50,477 nucleotides of DNA from Escherichia phage EC125, in sequence record ON185586.1; one strand, 5' to 3'. Of this stretch, positions 32,658 through 47,641 are shown piece by piece. A program made the translations under genes and the position numbers. Within the stretch, counting starts at the first letter, position 1, and each line of letters starts with the position of its first letter. The notes below the pieces were generated by a model. The model was not told the DNA's origin, did no database searches, and saw only the letters and a program-made list of their open reading frames with translations.

Positions 32658-32889
32658 GCAAGGTAGAGAGGCGGTATGGAATCACGCTAAAGAATGCGGA
32701 ATAGCCGACGATATAAAGAAGATCGCGCAATACTTTGATATTGCAGATGTGAGCATAATTAGCGGAGATAAGATGACTTTCCTCAAGGAAAGGCCGCGAA
32801 AAATGGTAAGAGTTCCAGCAGTTCCAACAAAAATTGATTTCAAAGAGGCAATGGCTAAAATCCGAGAGCCTCGCAAATATTATAAATGA
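32647..32889 (+). CDS. hypothetical protein
   Basis: about 80 aa; track start is TTG; start uncertain. Confidence 0.4.
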   Translation: MKVEQGREAVWNHAKECGIADDIKKIAQYFDIADVSIISGDKMTFLKERPRKMVRVPAVPTKIDFKEAMAKIREPRKYYK

Positions 32890-32983
32890 GGATAGTTATC
32901 ATGTGGCGCTTGTTTGTTCTACCGTTACCCGTTATCATCGCTGTTACAGTTATGTACCATATAGTGATGAGATAGGTAGCAGA

Positions 32984-34099
32984 ATGAAAAATGTAAAAAT
33001 TACAGATGAGCAATTCAAGATCGAACGGGCGGCGGGTAAGACATATAAACAGATCGCTCAAGAGTACGGAATGAATGTGAGAAGCGTCGAGCGTCGCGCG
33101 GCGCGACTTGCAAAGCAAGGCCAAGTATCCACAATTGGAGCGCCTGGTTTTGGCGTTCATGGTGAGTCAGTAATGACTGACAAAGAAGGCAACATAATCC
33201 TAAAGTGGACTAAAACCAGCAAGGATAAAGAGCAATTAGAAGCATTAATGCGCGCAGCAATGGAGGCATTTAGCGAGGAAGTGCCGCGATTAGATCCGGT
33301 TCCATTACAGGAGCGCGACTATAACGAAACGCTTTCCTTGTATCCGATCTTTGACATGCACTTAGGCGCTATGGCCCATAAGCACGAATGCGGCGAAAAT
33401 TGGGATACTGCCACAGCAGAGCGCGTTATGAATAACTTTATCGACTATGCTTTAATGTGCGCACCGGATAGCGAAAAGGCTGTCATCCTGATTGGTGGCG
33501 ATATGCTGCATAGCGACGGCCTGGAGGCGGTTACACCTGCAAGCGGTCACGTACTGGATCAAGATAGTCGATATGCAAAATTGGTTTACGTTGCCATCCG
33601 TGCAATGCGACGCGCAATCAATAAAATGTTGTTAAAGCATAAACATGTTGAAGTCCAGATCGTAGAGGGCAATCATGACCAATCAGGAATGATTTGGCTA
33701 CGCGCAGCAATGGCGGCAGCATATGAAAACGAGCCGCGCGTTTACGTTGATGTTTCCCCTCGCGTTGTGCACCACACGCAATACGGAAAAACTTTCCTTG
33801 CGTACCATCACGGGCACACAGTGCGTAAACCGGAGGCTTTGCTAATGATGTGCGCGTCAGATTGGCGGGAGGACTTCGGAAACTCAAAAACGATGTATGC
33901 GCACGTAGGGCACTGGCATCACCAGACCGTGACAGAAACGTCGCTTGGCATCGTTGAGGTGCATAGCACCCTGGCGGCAAAAGACGCATACGCAGCGCGC
34001 GGTGGCTGGCGATCTCTACGCCGTGCGGCGGTTATCATTTACGACAAAGAGCATGGAGAGGTTGGGCGATTTGTTCACTATCCAGAAATGATGAATTGA
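32984..34099 (+). CDS. calcineurin-like metallophosphatase with N-terminal HTH-like region
   Basis: ATG at 32984; motifs IFDMHLG, GGDMLH, GNHD; N-terminal ...KTYKQIAQEYGMNVRSVERR... Confidence 0.7.
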   Translation: MKNVKITDEQFKIERAAGKTYKQIAQEYGMNVRSVERRAARLAKQGQVSTIGAPGFGVHGESVMTDKEGNIILKWTKTSKDKEQLEALMRAAMEAFSEEVPRLDPVPLQERDYNETLSLYPIFDMHLGAMAHKHECGENWDTATAERVMNNFIDYALMCAPDSEKAVILIGGDMLHSDGLEAVTPASGHVLDQDSRYAKLVYVAIRAMRRAINKMLLKHKHVEVQIVEGNHDQSGMIWLRAAMAAAYENEPRVYVDVSPRVVHHTQYGKTFLAYHHGHTVRKPEALLMMCASDWREDFGNSKTMYAHVGHWHHQTVTETSLGIVEVHSTLAAKDAYAARGGWRSLRRAAVIIYDKEHGEVGRFVHYPEMMN

Positions 34100-41721: not shown

Positions 41722-42275
41722 TGACGGTTATCGCCAGGATTGCGATCGAAATAATCAAAAGTAATCATTAGTAATCAAATCACGTCAAAATGATGATTGC
41801 CTTTGCAAATTTGATGAGAAAAGCAATCACGTTTAATCATTGGTTGCAGGGGAGATAGTGAAACCTTCCCCTCTTGCCTCACTTTTCCGCCTGGCTGTCA
41901 GCGGTTGTTGTCTTTTGTTCACCCCTGTTACCGATTTCAGGCGGCGTGTTTCCGCGCGGTTTTCCGGTGTATCGAAAACGGAAAAAACAAAAAAAATCCT
42001 TTATAATACATTGAAAATAAAGATTATTTATTTATATATATCTATAATGTTTTCTTTTTGTTCTCACTGTTACAGTGCTTTTTGTTGGGTGTGGTGTGGT
42101 TGTGTGTTGGTATATATGGATAGTTGCGCGCGCGGCGGATTGCATATGTATATATACTTTTTCCGGCGGATTGCGTTAACAGCGTGAACAGAAAAATAAC
42201 AGCCCTGAAATCAATAACTTGCGCATGATTTTGTAGTTTTTCGATATTGGTAACGTTTTGAATACAACAAAAACA

Positions 42276-42303
42276 TTGACACGCACCAAATAGCTTTTAT
42301 AAT
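42276..42303 (+). promoter_or_regulatory. near-consensus sigma70 promoter (TTGACA-16-TATAAT) for the rightward early operon
   Basis: hexamers read directly; homologous in layout to the promoter at 21627. Confidence 0.55.
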
Positions 42304-43162: not shown

Positions 43163-44056
43163 ATGTTAAAACTTGCTGACATTAAATTCCCGATCACCTT
43201 CGAATCTCGCGGCATTGGTCATTACATTTTTACTGATGAAAAAACATGCCATAAAGTTGATCTTCATAGCTACAAGCGTGCGCCATCAGACATGGAGATT
43301 GAACACTTTATTGATGCGCACAATACGCAGTACAACGCACTTAAAGACTATGGCTATGCAATGCCAGGCTACACATGTTTGCACTACAAGCCATATAAGG
43401 GCCAAGTTTTACCAGTGCGCTCACCGGAACGCGCAGAGATTCCGATGGTTCATATGAAAACCTGCGACTACAAAAAGCTGTGGTGCTTAAGTCTGGACAA
43501 TATCAAGTATCCGATCACGTTCCGCACGACTGCTAAGTCAACGATTCGCTACACATCGCGCGAAAATGGCGTTTATAGCGATGGTACGAAATCAGGGTTG
43601 AAAGTTGATTTCTTTGTCAACGGTCACAATAGATACAATCCGCACAACGAAGAGGATAAAGTGTACTACGTGGAAGACATTACAAAACACTTATTTGGAG
43701 AAACTCCATTCGGCGGCGGTAAGACGTCAATTCAAAAAATCATTGGCGATGAGATCCACAAAGCGGCTGCCGAAATGAAAGCGCCTGGAGGCTGGCGTAT
43801 TGACAAGAGCGCATTTGCAAATCAAGAAATCGTAACGCAGGGCGCAATTGAAGATATGCCAGTTGCAGCCACTCTAAAAGGAGTCCGGCTTGATGACGGC
43901 ACCTGGTATGAAGTAACGGCTACACCAAAGACGATCGAGATTCATGATGACGTTGTTATCCTTCTGCTTCACTACGGCGGCTATAAAAACCGGACGATTG
44001 CAGGTGAGATCAGCATTAAGCGCGGAACGATGGTTAAGTGGAAGGTGAAGATTTGA
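43163..44056 (+). CDS. hypothetical protein with internal duplication
   Basis: 297 aa; LADIKFPITFESRG... repeated as LDNIKYPITFRTTA... Confidence 0.5.
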   Translation: MLKLADIKFPITFESRGIGHYIFTDEKTCHKVDLHSYKRAPSDMEIEHFIDAHNTQYNALKDYGYAMPGYTCLHYKPYKGQVLPVRSPERAEIPMVHMKTCDYKKLWCLSLDNIKYPITFRTTAKSTIRYTSRENGVYSDGTKSGLKVDFFVNGHNRYNPHNEEDKVYYVEDITKHLFGETPFGGGKTSIQKIIGDEIHKAAAEMKAPGGWRIDKSAFANQEIVTQGAIEDMPVAATLKGVRLDDGTWYEVTATPKTIEIHDDVVILLLHYGGYKNRTIAGEISIKRGTMVKWKVKI

Positions 44057-44354: not shown

Positions 44355-44576
44355 ATGTACATTAAAAAGAAGATGAAATGCGTTTCCGTTAACTATGCTT
44401 GCTCTGGCATGTTCAAGCCTGGCGAAATCTATACGGCGCAAAAACTGAAAACATCAACCGGATCTTTTTACGTGAGCAATAGTAAGGGGCATCGCATGTT
44501 CCTGAACGGCGGCGAAGGCACTAAGGTTATGGCACACGCTATGGTATTGGCTGAATTTGAGGAAGTGAAACAATGA
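44355..44576 (+). CDS. hypothetical protein, tandem paralog 1
   Basis: ATG after AAGGAG; shares ...FYVSNSKGHRMFLNGGEGT...AEFEEVK pattern with next ORF. Confidence 0.5.
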   Translation: MYIKKKMKCVSVNYACSGMFKPGEIYTAQKLKTSTGSFYVSNSKGHRMFLNGGEGTKVMAHAMVLAEFEEVKQ

Positions 44577-44818
44577 TCATTGAAAACAATTTTCTTTGCG
44601 TTAAGAGCAATAGACCATTCTTCACACCTGGCAAGGTGTACCAGGGCAAGAAGGACACAAGAGATGGTCACTCTTATCATGTTCACTGCAACAACGGATA
44701 CAAGTTTTACCTTAACGGCGAGAATGGAACTGAGATTGTTGCGTTTGAAAACGTAGTTGCCGAGTTCGAGCAGATTACAGACGCGGAATTTGAGGAAGTG
44801 AAAGATGAAAACAAATAA
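44573..44818 (+). CDS. hypothetical protein, tandem paralog 2
   Basis: 81 aa; ...YHVHCNNGYKFYLNGENGT...AEFE...AEFEEVK; ATGA overlap. Confidence 0.5.
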   Translation: MIIENNFLCVKSNRPFFTPGKVYQGKKDTRDGHSYHVHCNNGYKFYLNGENGTEIVAFENVVAEFEQITDAEFEEVKDENK

Positions 44819-45026
44819 GCGCGTCAAGCACAGGTTTACTGATAACCACGGCGACGCGATTGATGTATACAAGTTCGGCGATCGCGTGTTTATTGATGGC
44901 ACGTTTGAAGGTGGTCGTAGGCCGGATTTTAGGTCGATACTTACCGTTGACCAAGTGCGCAAGCTGGCAGATAAGTTAAATGATCTGGCAGATGAAATAG
45001 AATACAAGCAAATCCATTTTAATTGA
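44805..45026 (+). CDS. hypothetical protein
   Basis: 73 aa. Confidence 0.45.
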   Translation: MKTNKRVKHRFTDNHGDAIDVYKFGDRVFIDGTFEGGRRPDFRSILTVDQVRKLADKLNDLADEIEYKQIHFN

Positions 45027-45037
45027 TAGGTTTTATA

Positions 45038-45748
45038 ATGAAAAAATACACTTTCGAACTATGGGGCAATAAGTACGAATTTACGACAAGCAAGCCTATT
45101 GTTGTGTGCGATCTCGACGGCACACTATCGGACGGATCGCATCGTTTGCATTTGCTGCCAACTGAAAACTTACACCTTACGGAATCGTGGAGCGAATTTA
45201 ACAGGGCCGCCGCCGGAGATTCACCGATTAAAAGCACGATCGCGGTTATTAACGGTTTATGGGTGTCGGGATTTGCCATCGTCATCTTGACCGGACGCAG
45301 CGACGAGGTTCGCTACGAAACCTGCAAATGGTTGAATGAGAACGGCGTGAAGTTTGACGAAATCATCATGCGCCGCCAGGATGACAACCGAAAGGATACG
45401 GTTATTAAAGAGGAAGCCTTGCGCGCTATTTGCCTGGACAACATTGTTTGCGCCTTTGACGATTCGCCGAACGTGGTTAAGCACTTCCGCAGCTTGGGGA
45501 TCACAACCTATCAGGTCACGGAATACGACAAGCCACACGCTCACATACAATCTCACGGCGTGGAATCAATAAAGATCACGAAGCGCGCCCGATTCGTCGG
45601 CAGCAAAGACAGCCTGGTTAATGCCAGCTTTATCAAAGGCAAGGTTTATGATGTTAATAGCCATGATAAAAACCGATTCTTTTTGTGGGATGAAAAAGGT
45701 TTTGGCTGGTGCTTTGAACACGACGACGGCGATTTTGTTAATGCGTAA
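45038..45748 (+). CDS. HAD-superfamily phosphatase (putative nucleotidase / polynucleotide 3'-phosphatase)
   Basis: ATG at 45038; motif VVCDLDGTL (DxDGT), later ILTGR and FDDS; about 236 aa. Confidence 0.55.
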   Translation: MKKYTFELWGNKYEFTTSKPIVVCDLDGTLSDGSHRLHLLPTENLHLTESWSEFNRAAAGDSPIKSTIAVINGLWVSGFAIVILTGRSDEVRYETCKWLNENGVKFDEIIMRRQDDNRKDTVIKEEALRAICLDNIVCAFDDSPNVVKHFRSLGITTYQVTEYDKPHAHIQSHGVESIKITKRARFVGSKDSLVNASFIKGKVYDVNSHDKNRFFLWDEKGFGWCFEHDDGDFVNA

Positions 45749-45767
45749 TAGCACTTTTTGTTAAAAC
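45747..45767 (+). promoter_or_regulatory. 21-bp element with promoter-like module
   Basis: overlaps stop of HAD phosphatase; hairpin GGGCTT...AAGCCC; TATAGT. Confidence 0.55.
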
Positions 45768-45822
45768 ATCTTAACGGGCTTGCGGTATAGTAAGCCCATC
45801 AACAACAAGCGAGGATTAAATC

Positions 45823-46086
45823 ATGGCTAACAAGATCGAATTTTTCAAAGCGGTAGACATTATTGATGGCGCTCCTAGCTTCTTTGCCATCCATTCCATT
45901 GACGGCAAGGATATTGGGTACAACGTTATCCGTCGAGATGGAATCTCAAAACTTAGCGATCTGGTAGGGAATATTGTGTCAAACGGGAAATGCGCATGGC
46001 CCGATTCGCCACGAGAGCCACGCCGCCGCGACATGGTAGAGCCTGTTCTGCTTTACACTCTGGTAGTAGAAGGAGAAAATAAATGA
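45823..46086 (+). CDS. hypothetical protein
   Basis: 87 aa; GAGGA RBS; preceded by motif-type promoter. Confidence 0.5.
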   Translation: MANKIEFFKAVDIIDGAPSFFAIHSIDGKDIGYNVIRRDGISKLSDLVGNIVSNGKCAWPDSPREPRRRDMVEPVLLYTLVVEGENK

Positions 46087-46327
46087 TTTGGTTACTTGCT
46101 TTTTTGGTTGTTTTTCTTTACATTTAAGGCTTGTTTACGTTCCGCGCGTTGGTGAAATATTCTGACGCGACAGACAAAGACGATAAAATCGTTCTCGCTT
46201 TCTGGTTTGTTTGGGTGTGGTTAGCAATTTACGAGATCATCAGAGACAAACAGAAATTTGAGTGGTGATTCTTGCTATGGCGCATTCATGCAGTGCGCCA
46301 TGTTGAGAAAACCTAAATGGGGAGACG

Positions 46328-46477
46328 ATGCGTAACTTTGAAAAAATCATTACCAAAAAGAAGCGTCGCGGGTACGATGAGCATGTGGAGCTTGTGAAAA
46401 AGCAACGCAAGAAGCGCAACGAAGACAAGAAGCGCGGGAAAAAATTTAATGCGATTTTTCGCTATGGAGATCATTAA
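46328..46477 (+). CDS. small highly basic protein (49 aa, not in ORF track)
   Basis: MRNFEKIITKKKRRGYDEHVELVKKQRKKRNEDKKRGKKFNAIFRYGDH; GGAG 3 nt upstream. Confidence 0.3.
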   Translation: MRNFEKIITKKKRRGYDEHVELVKKQRKKRNEDKKRGKKFNAIFRYGDH

Positions 46478-46479
46478 TC

Positions 46480-47070
46480 ATGAAGCGAGACATTATCATC
46501 CTTAATGGGCCGCCAGGTTGCGGGAAGGACACTATTGCAGCTTACCTAACGGGCCATCGTTACCCAGCGGTTAAGGCGTCATTCAAACAGCCGATGTTCG
46601 ATATTGCGTTTTCCATGCTTGGCCCGACTCGATATGATGAGTTTATTGACCTGTACAACGACCGAGAGCAAAAAGAAAAGCCTCAAGTTATCTTAGGCGG
46701 CAAGTCACCTCGACAATTCATGATCTGGATTAGCGAGGATGTAATGAAGCCAGTCTTTGGGGAGCAGTATTTCGGGCGTCGAATGGTTGAAAAGATTAAC
46801 GAGATGTACCGAGATTTGGCGGTTGTGATCAGTGATGGCGGATTCCCCGAAGAAATCAAGCCGCTTGTTAAGGCAGGGCATGAAGTGCATATTTGCCGAT
46901 TGCATCGCGACGGCTTCACGTTTGCTGGCGATTCGAGAGACTACATTGACCTGAGCGGTTATCACTATAGAATCCATCACTATGACTTCCACTTGCAGGA
47001 CGGCAAGCCGGAACTGGCTGTAAACGAGATCGTCAATGCTGTCAAATGGAAGCACACACAGATTAAATAG
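46480..47070 (+). CDS. P-loop kinase (resembles T4 gp1 dNMP-kinase family; nucleotide or polynucleotide kinase)
   Basis: 196 aa; Walker A GPPGCGKDT; family assignment from memory of the GKDT-type P-loop. Confidence 0.5.
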   Translation: MKRDIIILNGPPGCGKDTIAAYLTGHRYPAVKASFKQPMFDIAFSMLGPTRYDEFIDLYNDREQKEKPQVILGGKSPRQFMIWISEDVMKPVFGEQYFGRRMVEKINEMYRDLAVVISDGGFPEEIKPLVKAGHEVHICRLHRDGFTFAGDSRDYIDLSGYHYRIHHYDFHLQDGKPELAVNEIVNAVKWKHTQIK

Positions 47071-47086
47071 CACGAATTGCTAAACG
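47066..47086 (+). promoter_or_regulatory. 21-bp element (variant AATAGCACGAATTGCTAAACG) with promoter-like module
   Basis: overlaps kinase stop TAG; TATAAT at fixed distance. Confidence 0.5.
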
Positions 47087-47140
47087 CGGGGCGCAATGCC
47101 TCGCTATAATGCAAACACCAATCAACGAGAGGAAACAATC

Positions 47141-47542
47141 ATGGTGGAGTTAAACGACATTCGCGTTGGAACAAAATTTCGCGTAACCTGGGCAGATAAA
47201 TATTGTGGCGTTAGCAAGGGCCAGGTTGTTGCGGTGGATAGTATTTATCGTGGTGTTAGTGGTGACTTTTGCCGTCCGCGCATCAATAATGGCTATATCA
47301 TTACTCGCCGTATTGGCTTTGATAATTATTGCGTAGTGGCGACTCAAGGAGTTTTGATTGAGCTTAAGAGAATCAGCGATCATCTCGGTCGTCATGTTAA
47401 GGCAATGAAAACACCATTTCAGCGAGCGAGATACGATGCGCGACGTATGCGCCGACTTGCGCGAAATGCGATCAAGTTCAAAAAGCCTGGCGATGATTTT
47501 TACGGCATGTATAAGGGGATTGCGCGCAATGCTGGGAAATAA
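47141..47542 (+). CDS. hypothetical protein
   Basis: ATG at 47141 after GAGAGGAAA; about 133 aa; preceded by motif-type promoter. Confidence 0.5.
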   Translation: MVELNDIRVGTKFRVTWADKYCGVSKGQVVAVDSIYRGVSGDFCRPRINNGYIITRRIGFDNYCVVATQGVLIELKRISDHLGRHVKAMKTPFQRARYDARRMRRLARNAIKFKKPGDDFYGMYKGIARNAGK

Positions 47543-47641
47543 CAATAACGCAACGAATCCTAAGCCACCTTTTGATTTTCATTCCGCAATGATTGCGGTA
47601 TTATCAATGCTACTTTTTCTTTATAGCATGAGGGCGCTACT

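What the first reader, a model, noticed from the sequence alone, without database searches (positions are those of the whole stretch)
45038..47070. HAD phosphatase and P-loop kinase encoded as separate early genes, with a small basic ORF between them
45038-45748 has the DxDGT signature (VVCDLDGTL) of HAD phosphatases plus a roughly 70-aa C-terminal extension. 46480-47070 has a GKDT-type Walker A (GPPGCGKDT) that, from memory, resembles the T4 gp1 dNMP-kinase family. Together they could be a nucleotide-salvage pair or a split polynucleotide kinase/phosphatase (nucleic-acid end repair, for example countering host anticodon nucleases). A 49-aa Lys/Arg-rich ORF (46328-46477) lies just upstream of the kinase.
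Basis: partly seen in the sequence, partly recalled or inferred. Interest (0 to 1): 0.45.

Follow-up and report, generated by a model that had tools for sequence, protein, structure and literature searches.

The report
Phage phosphatase plus dNMP-kinase gene pair
A T1-like coliphage carries a nucleotide kinase and a kinase-less phosphatase that always travel together as a two-gene nucleotide-supply cassette; both genes are already annotated and the kinase family is characterised, so this is ordinary apart from the unknown substrate of the phosphatase.

Summary
The window is the complete genome of Escherichia phage EC195 (Drexlerviridae, Warwickvirus). All three ORFs and both motifs are at the stated coordinates.

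Kinase (46480-47070): a phage dNMP kinase (DNK).
- PHROG 139, E 1e-51.
- 82% identical to the KarlJaspers DNK, which triggers the Kongming defence.
- 46.5% identical to Rao1 DNK, which phosphorylates all four dNMPs in vitro.

Phosphatase (45038-45748): a kinase-less PNKP-type HAD phosphatase.
- All catalytic residues are intact.
- It has a conserved cap insert and an extra C-terminal beta domain that only close relatives carry.

Linkage: 79 of 79 viral contigs with a close relative of this phosphatase have a DNK downstream on the same strand. In a distant clade of standalone phosphatases the figure is 1 of 80.

Interpretation:
- "Split PNKP" is not supported. The kinase is of the wrong class, the phage has no ligase, and a backbone-binding arginine is replaced.
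- Equivalence to T5 Dmp (a 5'-dNMPase) is unlikely. Rao1 carries the same cassette, yet is Kongming-sensitive and is rescued by T5 Dmp supplied in trans.
- Most likely this is a nucleotide-supply module. The phosphatase substrate is unresolved.

The small basic ORF resembles T7 gp1.1. Interest is low to moderate.

The parts
42276..42303 (+). Consensus sigma-70 promoter-like site (TTGACA-16-TATAAT) heading the rightward block of small genes that contains both enzymes
   Evidence: 12 of 12 hexamer matches. No terminator-like site lies between it and the kinase on the + strand except weak ones at 42065 and 44912. Function is inferred, not shown.
45038..45748 (+). Kinase-less PNKP-type HAD (DxDxT) phosphatase, 236 aa; GenBank URC25692.1, labelled '3'-phosphatase, 5'-polynucleotide kinase'
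45110..45124 (+). HAD motif I, DLDGT (aa 25-29): nucleophile Asp25 and general acid Asp27
   Evidence: Aligns with T4 Pnkp D165-T169 and with T5 Dmp D22-T26.
45146..45217 (+). Conserved cap-like insert after motif I (aa 37-60, LHLLPTENLHLTESWSEFNRAAAG), absent from T4 Pnkp
   Evidence: Invariant residues L37 H38 P41 T42 H46 L47 T48 E49 W51 F54 N55 in 31 homologues. There is no counterpart in T4 PseT; T5 and VPG01 Dmp have an insert at the same place. AF2 pLDDT is below 50 for aa 40-61.
45575..45745 (+). C-terminal accessory beta-rich domain (aa 180-236), present only in Warwickvirus-like relatives
   Evidence: Missing from most homologues, which end at about aa 180. AF2 pLDDT is about 90, with five short strands. 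An HMM of this domain finds standalone ORFs of about 66 aa and tandem copies in 213-aa ORFs of other T1-like phages, at E 1e-5 to 6e-8. One such ORF has a weak, sub-threshold DUF7244 (SH3 clan) match.
45776..45797 (+). Stable hairpin just downstream of the phosphatase gene
   Evidence: -14.9 kcal/mol, z -4.8 against shuffles. No T-run follows. Role unknown.
45823..46086 (+). Conserved 87-aa ORF of unknown function between the two enzymes
   Evidence: PHROG 25318 at 5e-6. An orthologue sits at the same place in KarlJaspers.
46083..46268 (+). Small two-helix hydrophobic ORF, interrupted in EC195 by an in-frame TAA at 46125-46127
   Evidence: Seven distinct relatives read through with Ser at that codon, giving 61 aa. 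GenBank annotates only 46152-46268.
46269..46309 (+). Stable hairpin upstream of the small basic ORF and the kinase
   Evidence: -20 kcal/mol, z -4.0. Conserved in KarlJaspers with one compensatory G-C to A-U change. No Rfam match.
46328..46477 (+). 49-aa basic protein resembling T7 gene 1.1 protein; its stop lies 2 nt before the kinase start
   Evidence: Pfam Phage_1_1 PF08200 gives 18.4 bits, E 0.003, below the cut-off of 21. The N-terminal MRNFEK is identical to T7 gp1.1. Seven diverged variants in other T1-like contigs sit at the same position, keep MRNFE invariant, and all match PF08200 at E<=0.1.
46480..47070 (+). Deoxynucleoside monophosphate kinase (DNK), 196 aa; GenBank URC25696.1
46507..46533 (+). 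Walker A / P-loop, GPPGCGKDT (aa 10-18)
   Evidence: G15, K16, D17 and T18 are invariant in 32 homologues. Lys16 aligns with Lys15 of R1DNK, whose K15A mutation abolishes Kongming triggering.
32834..34099 (+). PHROG 704 'DNA repair exonuclease', the usual upstream neighbour of the pair in other phages but unlinked from it in EC195
   Evidence: PHROG 704 at 5e-148. 57.6% id to Rao1 gp56 and 42% to ECBP5_0028. In Rao1, Webervirus and ECBP5 the order is exonuclease, HAD, DNK.

Best explanation
The two enzymes are a conserved nucleotide-supply cassette of T1-like phages, not a split end-healing enzyme.

Shown:
- 46480-47070 belongs to the phage dNMP-kinase (DNK) family. A 46.5%-identical member (Rao1 R1DNK) converts dAMP, dGMP, dCMP and dTMP to dNDPs with ATP. 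An 82%-identical member (KarlJaspers) triggers the Kongming defence, which depends on that activity.
- 45038-45748 is a stand-alone HAD phosphomonoesterase of the PNKP type with every catalytic residue intact.
- This phosphatase clade is always followed by a DNK gene.

Inferred:
- Both genes are transcribed early from the host-type promoter at 42276.
- T1-like phages break down the host chromosome and re-use its nucleotides. The DNK pushes the resulting 5'-dNMPs to dNDPs, and host NDK makes dNTPs.
- The phosphatase works at the level of nucleotides or short breakdown products. Most likely it removes 3'-phosphates (from 3'-dNMP, pdNp or 3'-P ends) or trims particular nucleotides, so that breakdown products can enter, or be kept out of, the DNK route.
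- It has gained a cap insert and lost one of the two arginines that in T4 Pnkp hold the polynucleotide backbone. That fits a small-molecule substrate.
- The C-terminal domain and the upstream gp1.1-like protein are lineage-specific accessories of unknown role.
For: Kinase:
- PHROG 139, E 1e-51.
- 82%, 46.5% and 43% identity to the KarlJaspers, Rao1 and VAC2 DNKs. Family motifs shared with T5 DNK: SFK-P, SPRxxM, SD/TD-x-x-F-x-x-E.
- Published activity of R1DNK on four dNMPs, and Kongming triggering by the KarlJaspers, VAC2 and T5 DNKs.

Phosphatase:
- HAD_PNKP, E 8.6e-21.
- Catalytic residues conserved.

Linkage:
- 61 of 80 DNK loci have this phosphatase upstream on the same strand.
- 79 of 79 loci with a close phosphatase relative have a DNK downstream, at gaps of -1 to 2158 nt. 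In the distant short-insert clade it is 1 of 80.
- The genes overlap by 4 nt in Webervirus and in the podovirus ECBP5.
- The order exonuclease, HAD, DNK recurs in Rao1, Webervirus and ECBP5.
- Others have noted the pair and proposed that it enhances nucleotide supply (PMC13164509).
- T1 and TLS degrade host DNA and re-use the nucleotides (PMC11447400).

Substrate shift:
- The T4 Arg279 equivalent is Ser in 120/120 close homologues, but Arg in 81/120 distant representatives.
- The cap insert is conserved.
Against: - No member of this phosphatase clade has been assayed, so its substrate is inferred only.
- The closest solved relatives are polynucleotide 3'-phosphatases. T4 Pnkp also accepts 3'-dTMP (PMC3592404), so activity on DNA ends is not excluded.
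- The role of Arg246/Arg279 in T4 rests on my memory of Zhu et al. 2007 (Virology 366:126). I could not retrieve the paper.
- The cap insert is modelled with low confidence.
- Most linked loci come from one phage family, so the counts are not independent events.
- Deleting dnk in Rao1 had no apparent fitness cost in the laboratory, so the supply role may be dispensable under those conditions.
- In EC195 the two genes are separated by about 730 nt and three small ORFs, so translational coupling is absent here.
Confidence: 0.55

Rival explanations
1. The phosphatase is a T5 Dmp-like 5'-deoxynucleotidase. It lowers dNMP (especially dAMP) levels and so shields the phage's own DNK from being used by the Kongming defence to make dITP. 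On this reading the pair is a trigger plus its antidote.
For: - T5 Dmp matches PHROG 415 full-length at 3.6e-57, the same family as the EC195 protein.
- Dmp shares all catalytic residues and also has an insert after motif I.
- The Arg279 equivalent is non-Arg in both: Ser here, His in Dmp.
- Dmps co-occur with DNKs and block Kongming.
Against: - Rao1 carries the same cassette: gp57 is 56% identical to the EC195 core, with the same insert and DDS motif. Yet Rao1 is strongly restricted by Kongming, its infection raises dAMP 2-3 fold, and it is rescued by T5 Dmp supplied in trans.
- Direct similarity to Dmp is very weak: 6 bits on the clade HMM and 26 bits on a broad family HMM, against 86 bits for T4 PseT. 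BLAST finds only the DLDGT motif.
- The Dmps' second insert between motifs II and III is absent.
- A bulk 5'-dNMPase co-expressed with DNK would oppose the nucleotide re-use known for T1-like phages.
Confidence: 0.18
2. The two genes are a split polynucleotide kinase/phosphatase that heals broken nucleic-acid ends (3'-P removed, 5'-OH phosphorylated), for example after attack by anticodon nucleases or nicking defences.
For: - The phosphatase is most similar in sequence and fold to the end-healing phosphatase domains of T4 Pnkp and C. gingivalis Pnkp1.
- The pair lies next to a DNA ligase in ECBP5, and the DNK next to a ligase in SKA49.
- Fused HAD-kinase proteins with the same N-to-C order exist in other phages.
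Against: - The kinase is a dNMP kinase by fold, by family and by tested orthologues.
- It matches neither Pfam AAA_33, the kinase class found in the fused enzymes, nor the T4 PseT kinase domain beyond the P-loop (7 bits).
- EC195, KarlJaspers and Rao1 show no ligase.
- The Arg279 equivalent is lost in the whole DNK-linked clade.
Confidence: 0.08
3. The linkage is only modular co-inheritance. The phosphatase acts on an unrelated substrate (a sugar phosphate, a phosphoprotein, a signalling nucleotide of another defence system) and has no functional tie to the kinase.
For: - HAD enzymes are notoriously diverse in substrate.
- Weak matches to acid phosphatase and phosphoheptose-type families.
- In EC195 the genes are not adjacent.
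- Most standalone HAD_PNKP relatives have no kinase nearby.
Against: - Order and strand are invariant in 79 of 79 loci, with frequent 4-nt overlaps.
- The pair occupies two different genome positions within Drexlerviridae, and also occurs in an Autographiviridae phage, always together.
Confidence: 0.12

Closest known systems
Rao1 gp57-gp58 and KarlJaspers (Bas06) bas06_0071 / bas06_0076, the DNK-bearing T1-like phages of the Kongming study (bioRxiv 10.1101/2024.12.20.629578)
   Same: Same cassette. The kinase is 82% (KarlJaspers) and 46.5% (Rao1) identical. The phosphatase core is 56% identical to Rao1 gp57. The order is phosphatase then kinase on one strand. KarlJaspers also has the gp1.1-like ORF abutting the kinase.
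   Different: - In Rao1 the genes are 49 nt apart and follow the exonuclease next to the lysis genes. In EC195 and KarlJaspers they lie in the right-end early block with small ORFs between them.
- Only EC195-like phages have the C-terminal domain on the phosphatase.
- The study characterised the kinase only; gp57 was not examined.
T4 gp1 deoxynucleoside monophosphate kinase (PDB 1DEK) and T5 DNK
   Different: - No match to Pfam DNMK PF21448 or to 1DEK by sequence.
- About 45-50 residues shorter, lacking the long insert of the T5, T4 and XZ1 enzymes.
T4 Pnkp (PseT) phosphatase domain (PDB 5UJ0, 1LTQ) and C. gingivalis Pnkp1 (4XRP)
   Same: DxDxT HAD core. 31-32% identity over 110-118 aligned residues. 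All residues needed for T4 3'-phosphatase activity are conserved.
   Different: - No fused kinase domain.
- A conserved insert of about 20 aa after motif I.
- Arg279 equivalent replaced by Ser.
- Extra N-terminal hairpin and C-terminal domain.
- No partner ligase in the genome.
T5 Dmp, deoxynucleoside-5'-monophosphatase and anti-Kongming factor
   Same: Same PHROG (415). Stand-alone. Same catalytic residues. Insert after motif I. Found in DNK-encoding phages.
   Different: - Very low direct similarity.
- Dmp has a second insert and a different C-terminal region.
- In T5 the dmp gene is in the first-step-transfer DNA, far from dnk.
- The Rao1 orthologue of the EC195 protein does not protect against Kongming in vivo.
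T7 gene 1.1 protein (Pfam PF08200)
   Same: Small, basic, N-terminal MRNFEK. Sits in an early region directly upstream of a nucleotide-metabolism gene: 1.2 (dGTPase inhibitor) in T7, DNK here.
   Different: The score is below Pfam's cut-off (18.4 vs 21). Only about 38% identity over 37 residues. The function of gp1.1 is itself unknown.

Membership tests
Phage dNMP kinase (DNK; PHROG 139; T4 gp1 / T5 Dnk) | Match to the family profile | tested here: met
   PHROG 139 at 1.1e-51, aa 1-189.
Phage dNMP kinase (DNK; PHROG 139; T4 gp1 / T5 Dnk) | Match to Pfam DNMK (PF21448) above its gathering score | tested here: not met
   No DNMK hit at E<=0.1. No sequence-level hit to 1DEK with the single sequence or with a 32-sequence profile.
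Phage dNMP kinase (DNK; PHROG 139; T4 gp1 / T5 Dnk) | Fold of T4 gp1 rather than of other P-loop kinases | tested here: met
   [not shown]
Phage dNMP kinase (DNK; PHROG 139; T4 gp1 / T5 Dnk) | GKDT P-loop and the NMP-site motifs shared with T5 DNK | tested here: met
   GPPGCGKDT, SFKQP, SPRQFM and SDGGFPEE align with T5 GSGKDT, SFAKP, SPRKML and TDVRFPNE. These residues are invariant in the clade.
Phage dNMP kinase (DNK; PHROG 139; T4 gp1 / T5 Dnk) | Close homology to a biochemically tested member | tested here: met
   82% to KarlJaspers DNK, 46.5% to R1DNK. Their activities are reported.
Phage dNMP kinase (DNK; PHROG 139; T4 gp1 / T5 Dnk) | ATP-dependent phosphorylation of dNMPs by this protein | not testable with these tools
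   Needs an enzyme assay.
Bifunctional polynucleotide kinase-phosphatase (T4 Pnkp type) | DxDxT HAD phosphatase domain with the essential T4 residues | tested here: met
   HAD_PNKP at 8.6e-21. D25, D27, R36, D61, T85, R87, D120, K124, D141 and D142 are conserved.
Bifunctional polynucleotide kinase-phosphatase (T4 Pnkp type) | PNK-type P-loop kinase domain in the same polypeptide | tested here: not met
   The 236-aa ORF has no P-loop. The GenBank label 'polynucleotide kinase' is a misnomer.
Bifunctional polynucleotide kinase-phosphatase (T4 Pnkp type) | If split, the partner kinase should be of the PNK (AAA_33) class | tested here: not met
   The partner has no AAA_33 match. It scores 7 bits against the PseT kinase domain. 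Fused HAD-AAA_33 proteins of other phages do show AAA_33 at 1e-16 to 3e-18.
Bifunctional polynucleotide kinase-phosphatase (T4 Pnkp type) | Arg246/Arg279 pair proposed to bind the penultimate phosphodiester of the polynucleotide (role recalled from Zhu et al. 2007, not re-read) | tested here: not met
   The Arg246 equivalent is kept (R112). The Arg279 equivalent is Ser143, and Ser in 120/120 close homologues, against Arg in 81/120 distant representatives.
Bifunctional polynucleotide kinase-phosphatase (T4 Pnkp type) | Partner RNA or DNA ligase for sealing | tested here: not met
   No ligase is annotated in EC195, and none was found among the nine larger, mostly unannotated ORFs I scanned.
T5 Dmp-type 5'-deoxynucleotidase | Same profile family and catalytic Asp (T5 D22) | tested here: met
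   Both fall in PHROG 415. D25 aligns with D22.
T5 Dmp-type 5'-deoxynucleotidase | Specific sequence relatedness to characterised Dmps (T5, Bas26, VPG01), including their insert between motifs II and III | tested here: not met
   6 bits on the clade HMM, 26 bits on the broad HMM, BLAST E 0.024 on the motif only. The second insert is absent.
T5 Dmp-type 5'-deoxynucleotidase | Depletes dAMP and protects against Kongming | not testable with these tools
   Indirect evidence against. Rao1, with an orthologous phosphatase, is Kongming-sensitive, raises dAMP on infection, and needs T5 Dmp in trans for protection.
T7 gene 1.1 protein (PF08200), for ORF 46328-46477 | Match to PF08200 above its gathering score | tested here: not met
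   18.4 bits against a cut-off of 21. All 8 aligned variants match at E<=0.1, and MRNFE is invariant.

The most novel reading that the evidence does not exclude
The DNK-linked phosphatases (cap insert HRLHLLPTxDLHLTESWxEFN, DDS instead of DDR) are a distinct, uncharacterised enzyme class. On this reading they switched from polynucleotide ends to mononucleotide substrates and work as an obligate partner of the phage dNMP kinase. For example, they could strip 3'-phosphates from pdNp or 3'-dNMP breakdown products, or selectively dephosphorylate non-canonical dNMPs (dIMP, dUMP, methylated dNMPs from host DNA) before a broad-specificity DNK can activate them. That would set how visible such phages are to nucleotide-sensing defences such as Kongming.
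Probability: 0.3. Interest if true: 0.5.

Novelty: new member of a known kind. Interest (0 to 1): 0.3.

Why it matters
- The kinase family is now known both to feed phage DNA synthesis and to be hijacked by the Kongming defence to make the dITP alarm signal. EC195 therefore carries a known Kongming trigger.
- The partner phosphatase is labelled 'polynucleotide kinase' in many of the roughly 3,100 phage records that match it, although the stand-alone forms have no kinase domain. Its PHROG family mixes it with the T5 5'-deoxynucleotidase.
- Its strict linkage to DNK makes it a cheap, well-defined target for an enzyme assay. That assay would correct a widespread annotation. It would also show whether T1-like phages edit their nucleotide pools in a way that matters for defence evasion.
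- Beyond that, the locus is ordinary.

Tried and rejected
- Sequence searches of the kinase (single sequence and a 32-sequence profile) against PDB gave only P-loop noise. Pfam and NCBIfam gave nothing above cut-off. Only PHROGs, the fold search and the literature placed it.
- I looked for a residue-level discriminator between T4-type 3'-phosphatase and T5-type 5'-nucleotidase. All catalytic and architectural residues are shared by both, so they do not discriminate. Only the Arg279 position and the inserts differ.
- The 'HRLH' motif after motif I first looked clade-specific. It also occurs in bifunctional Pnkp-like proteins such as P0310, so I dropped it as a marker.
- Single-protein scans of IMG/VR with distant representatives found almost nothing. 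An alignment-based scan was needed.
- I tested whether the C-terminal domain is a paralogue of neighbouring ORF 44573-44818. The result was E 0.018 and 10.6 bits, which is not significant. There are no Pfam hits for the domain and only weak PHROG hits.
- I could not retrieve Zhu et al. 2007 on the T4 phosphatase residues. PMC3592404 does not mention Arg246/Arg279.
- The figures of the Kongming preprint that show which BASEL phages are sensitive and which carry 'Dmp homologues' are images and could not be read.
- Rfam found nothing in the intergenic hairpins. The T7 region upstream of gene 1.1 shows no sequence similarity to the EC195 hairpin.
- The retron and DefensePredictor papers mention dNMP kinases only in passing.
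Full report
**Origin of the window.** The 3.1-kb stretch I queried (44500-47600) is 99.9% identical, at the same coordinates, to Escherichia phage EC195, whose record is also 50,477 bp long (ON185588.1; Drexlerviridae, Tempevirinae, Warwickvirus). So the window is that complete genome. GenBank already annotates 45038-45748 as '3'-phosphatase, 5'-polynucleotide kinase', 46480-47070 as 'dNMP kinase', and 46328-46477 as hypothetical.

**Observation.**
- The ORFs and both motifs are present as described.
- The phosphatase matches Pfam HAD_PNKP at 8.6e-21 and PHROG 415 at 6e-67. The kinase matches PHROG 139 (dNMP kinase) at 1e-51.
- The small ORF is 39% Lys+Arg and ends 2 nt before the kinase start.
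- Three ORFs, not one, lie between the enzymes.
- A perfect consensus sigma-70 promoter at 42276-42303 heads this rightward block. No convincing terminator precedes the kinase. This fits, but does not prove, early co-transcription.

**The kinase.**
- Sequence methods alone do not reach 1DEK or Pfam DNMK.
- The decisive evidence is published experiment. Table S1 of the Kongming preprint gives the sequences of tested phage DNKs.
- The EC195 protein is 82% identical to the KarlJaspers (Bas06) DNK, 46.5% to Rao1 R1DNK and 43% to the VAC2 DNK. It shares only the P-loop with the T4 PseT kinase domain.
- R1DNK phosphorylates dAMP, dGMP, dCMP and dTMP in vitro. The KarlJaspers, VAC2 and T5 enzymes trigger Kongming toxicity.
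- The kinase is therefore a DNK with high confidence.

**The phosphatase.**
- Every residue needed for T4 phosphatase activity is conserved.
- The protein has no kinase domain, so the common label 'polynucleotide kinase' is wrong.
- The family is very large: 8,604 representatives at E<=0.001. Most of the best 150 representatives listed are stand-alone proteins of 145-180 aa.
- Unexpectedly, the T5 deoxynucleoside-5'-monophosphatase Dmp falls in the same PHROG 415 (3.6e-57) and shares all the catalytic residues. Conservation of those residues therefore cannot tell a 3'-phosphatase from a 5'-nucleotidase.
- Quantitatively the EC195 clade is much nearer to T4 PseT than to Dmp: 86 vs 26 bits on a broad family HMM, and 32 vs 6 bits on the clade HMM.
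- Three things set the clade apart from T4:
  - a strongly conserved insert of about 20 residues after motif I, where caps of HAD enzymes sit;
  - Ser in place of T4 Arg279 in 120/120 close homologues, where 81/120 distant representatives keep Arg;
  - in EC195-like phages only, a confidently modelled C-terminal beta-rich domain.
- From memory of Zhu et al. 2007, Arg246 and Arg279 hold a sulfate that mimics the penultimate phosphodiester of the polynucleotide. I could not re-read that paper.

**Linkage.**
- Of 80 IMG/VR loci encoding a DNK relative, 61 have this phosphatase within 6 kb, always upstream on the same strand.
- Of 79 loci encoding a close phosphatase relative, all 79 have a DNK downstream, with gaps from overlap to 2,158 nt.
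- In a control set of 80 diverse loci with distant, short-insert standalone phosphatases:
  - only 1 has a DNK nearby;
  - 9 are fused to a C-terminal AAA_33 (PNK-type) kinase;
  - most have no kinase at all.
- The genes overlap by 4 nt in Webervirus and in the podovirus ECBP5.
- In Rao1, Webervirus and ECBP5 the pair directly follows the PHROG 704 'DNA repair exonuclease'. EC195 keeps that exonuclease at 32834-34099, next to the lysis genes, while the pair sits in the right-end block.
- So the pair is found together at two different genome positions.
- Caveat: most of these loci are T1-like phages, so the counts are not independent events.

**Choosing between mechanisms.**
- Split PNKP is disfavoured. 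The partner kinase is of the wrong class, real fused HAD-AAA_33 enzymes exist for comparison, no ligase is present in EC195, and the Arg279 equivalent is lost.
- Dmp-equivalence is disfavoured by data on Rao1, the model phage of the Kongming study.
  - Rao1 has the same cassette. Its gp57 is 56% identical to the EC195 core, with the same insert and DDS motif, and lies 49 nt upstream of R1DNK.
  - Yet Rao1 is restricted by Kongming, escapes only through DNK mutations, raises dAMP 2-3 fold on infection, and is protected when T5 Dmp is supplied in trans.
- What remains is a nucleotide-supply role. It matches the known re-use of host DNA by T1 and TLS and the suggestion by others that the pair 'enhances nucleotide supply'.
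- I take the phosphatase to act on nucleotide-level or short breakdown products (3'-phosphates or selected nucleotides). This step is inferred.
- T4 3'-phosphatase has long been linked to DNA metabolism during host DNA breakdown (Depew and Cozzarelli 1974; my own knowledge, not checked here), and it does accept 3'-dTMP.

**The small basic ORF.**
- It begins MRNFEK, like T7 gene 1.1 protein, and matches Pfam PF08200 just below cut-off.
- Seven diverged versions sit at the same place, abutting the DNK, in other T1-like contigs. All keep MRNFE.
- It is a real gene of unknown function. In T7, gene 1.1 likewise precedes a nucleotide-metabolism gene.

**Verdict.** The genes are annotated, the kinase family is characterised, and the pairing has been noted in print. 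The only open point is the substrate of a widely mis-labelled phosphatase clade that is strictly tied to DNK. This is a new member of a known kind, of low to moderate interest.

Noticed in passing
window 46083-46268 (stop at 46125-46127): A conserved 61-aa ORF with two hydrophobic helices is interrupted in EC195 by an in-frame TAA at codon 15. Seven distinct relatives have Ser there. GenBank annotates only the downstream part. This is either a nonsense mutation or a sequencing error.
   Followed up: partly
window 46269-46309 and 45776-45797: Two unusually stable intergenic hairpins: -20 kcal/mol (z -4.0) and -14.9 kcal/mol (z -4.8). Neither has a T-run. The first is conserved in KarlJaspers with a compensatory G-C to A-U change and lies just upstream of the gp1.1-like ORF. 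Rao1 also has a hairpin in the 49-nt gap before its DNK, where Kongming escape mutations map. These may be processing or regulatory sites.
   Followed up: partly
window 45575-45745; L062:1616-1828, L065:3682-4320, L010:5081-5269: The C-terminal domain fused to the EC195 phosphatase recurs as standalone ORFs of about 66 aa and as two tandem copies in 213-aa ORFs in the early regions of other T1-like phages. One such ORF has a weak, sub-threshold match to DUF7244, the SH3-clan family recently described as a standalone Drexlerviridae protein. It may be a mobile small SH3-like domain.
   Followed up: partly
L112:413-1354, L123:159-1202, L163:4905-5987 (IMG/VR contigs): Environmental phages encode fused proteins with the HAD_PNKP phosphatase at the N-terminus and an AAA_33 kinase at the C-terminus. 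This is the reverse of the T4 Pnkp domain order. It was seen in 9 of 80 loci.
   Followed up: partly
PHROG 415; L002:124-858 (T5 dmp): PHROG 415 is labelled 'polynucleotide kinase'. It contains kinase-less phosphatases and the experimentally defined T5 5'-deoxynucleotidase Dmp. The label propagates into many of the roughly 3,100 matching phage records.
   Followed up: yes
window 42276-42303: A perfect TTGACA-16-TATAAT promoter consensus sits at the start of the rightward block of small genes. This is the divergence point from the leftward block that ends near 41.4 kb.
   Followed up: no
window 32834-34099 versus L250:3694-6057, L004:2830-5070, L005:2253-4564: The order exonuclease (PHROG 704), phosphatase, DNK is contiguous in Rao1, Webervirus and the podovirus ECBP5. 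In EC195 and KarlJaspers it is split: the exonuclease stays by the lysis genes and the pair lies about 11 kb away. ECBP5 continues with a DNA ligase, and SKA49 has ligase, DNK, dUTPase.
   Followed up: partly
window 43163-44056: A 297-aa ORF matches PHROG 7116 in two stretches and shows an internal repeat (IKFPITFESRG / IKYPITFRTT). Function unknown.
   Followed up: no
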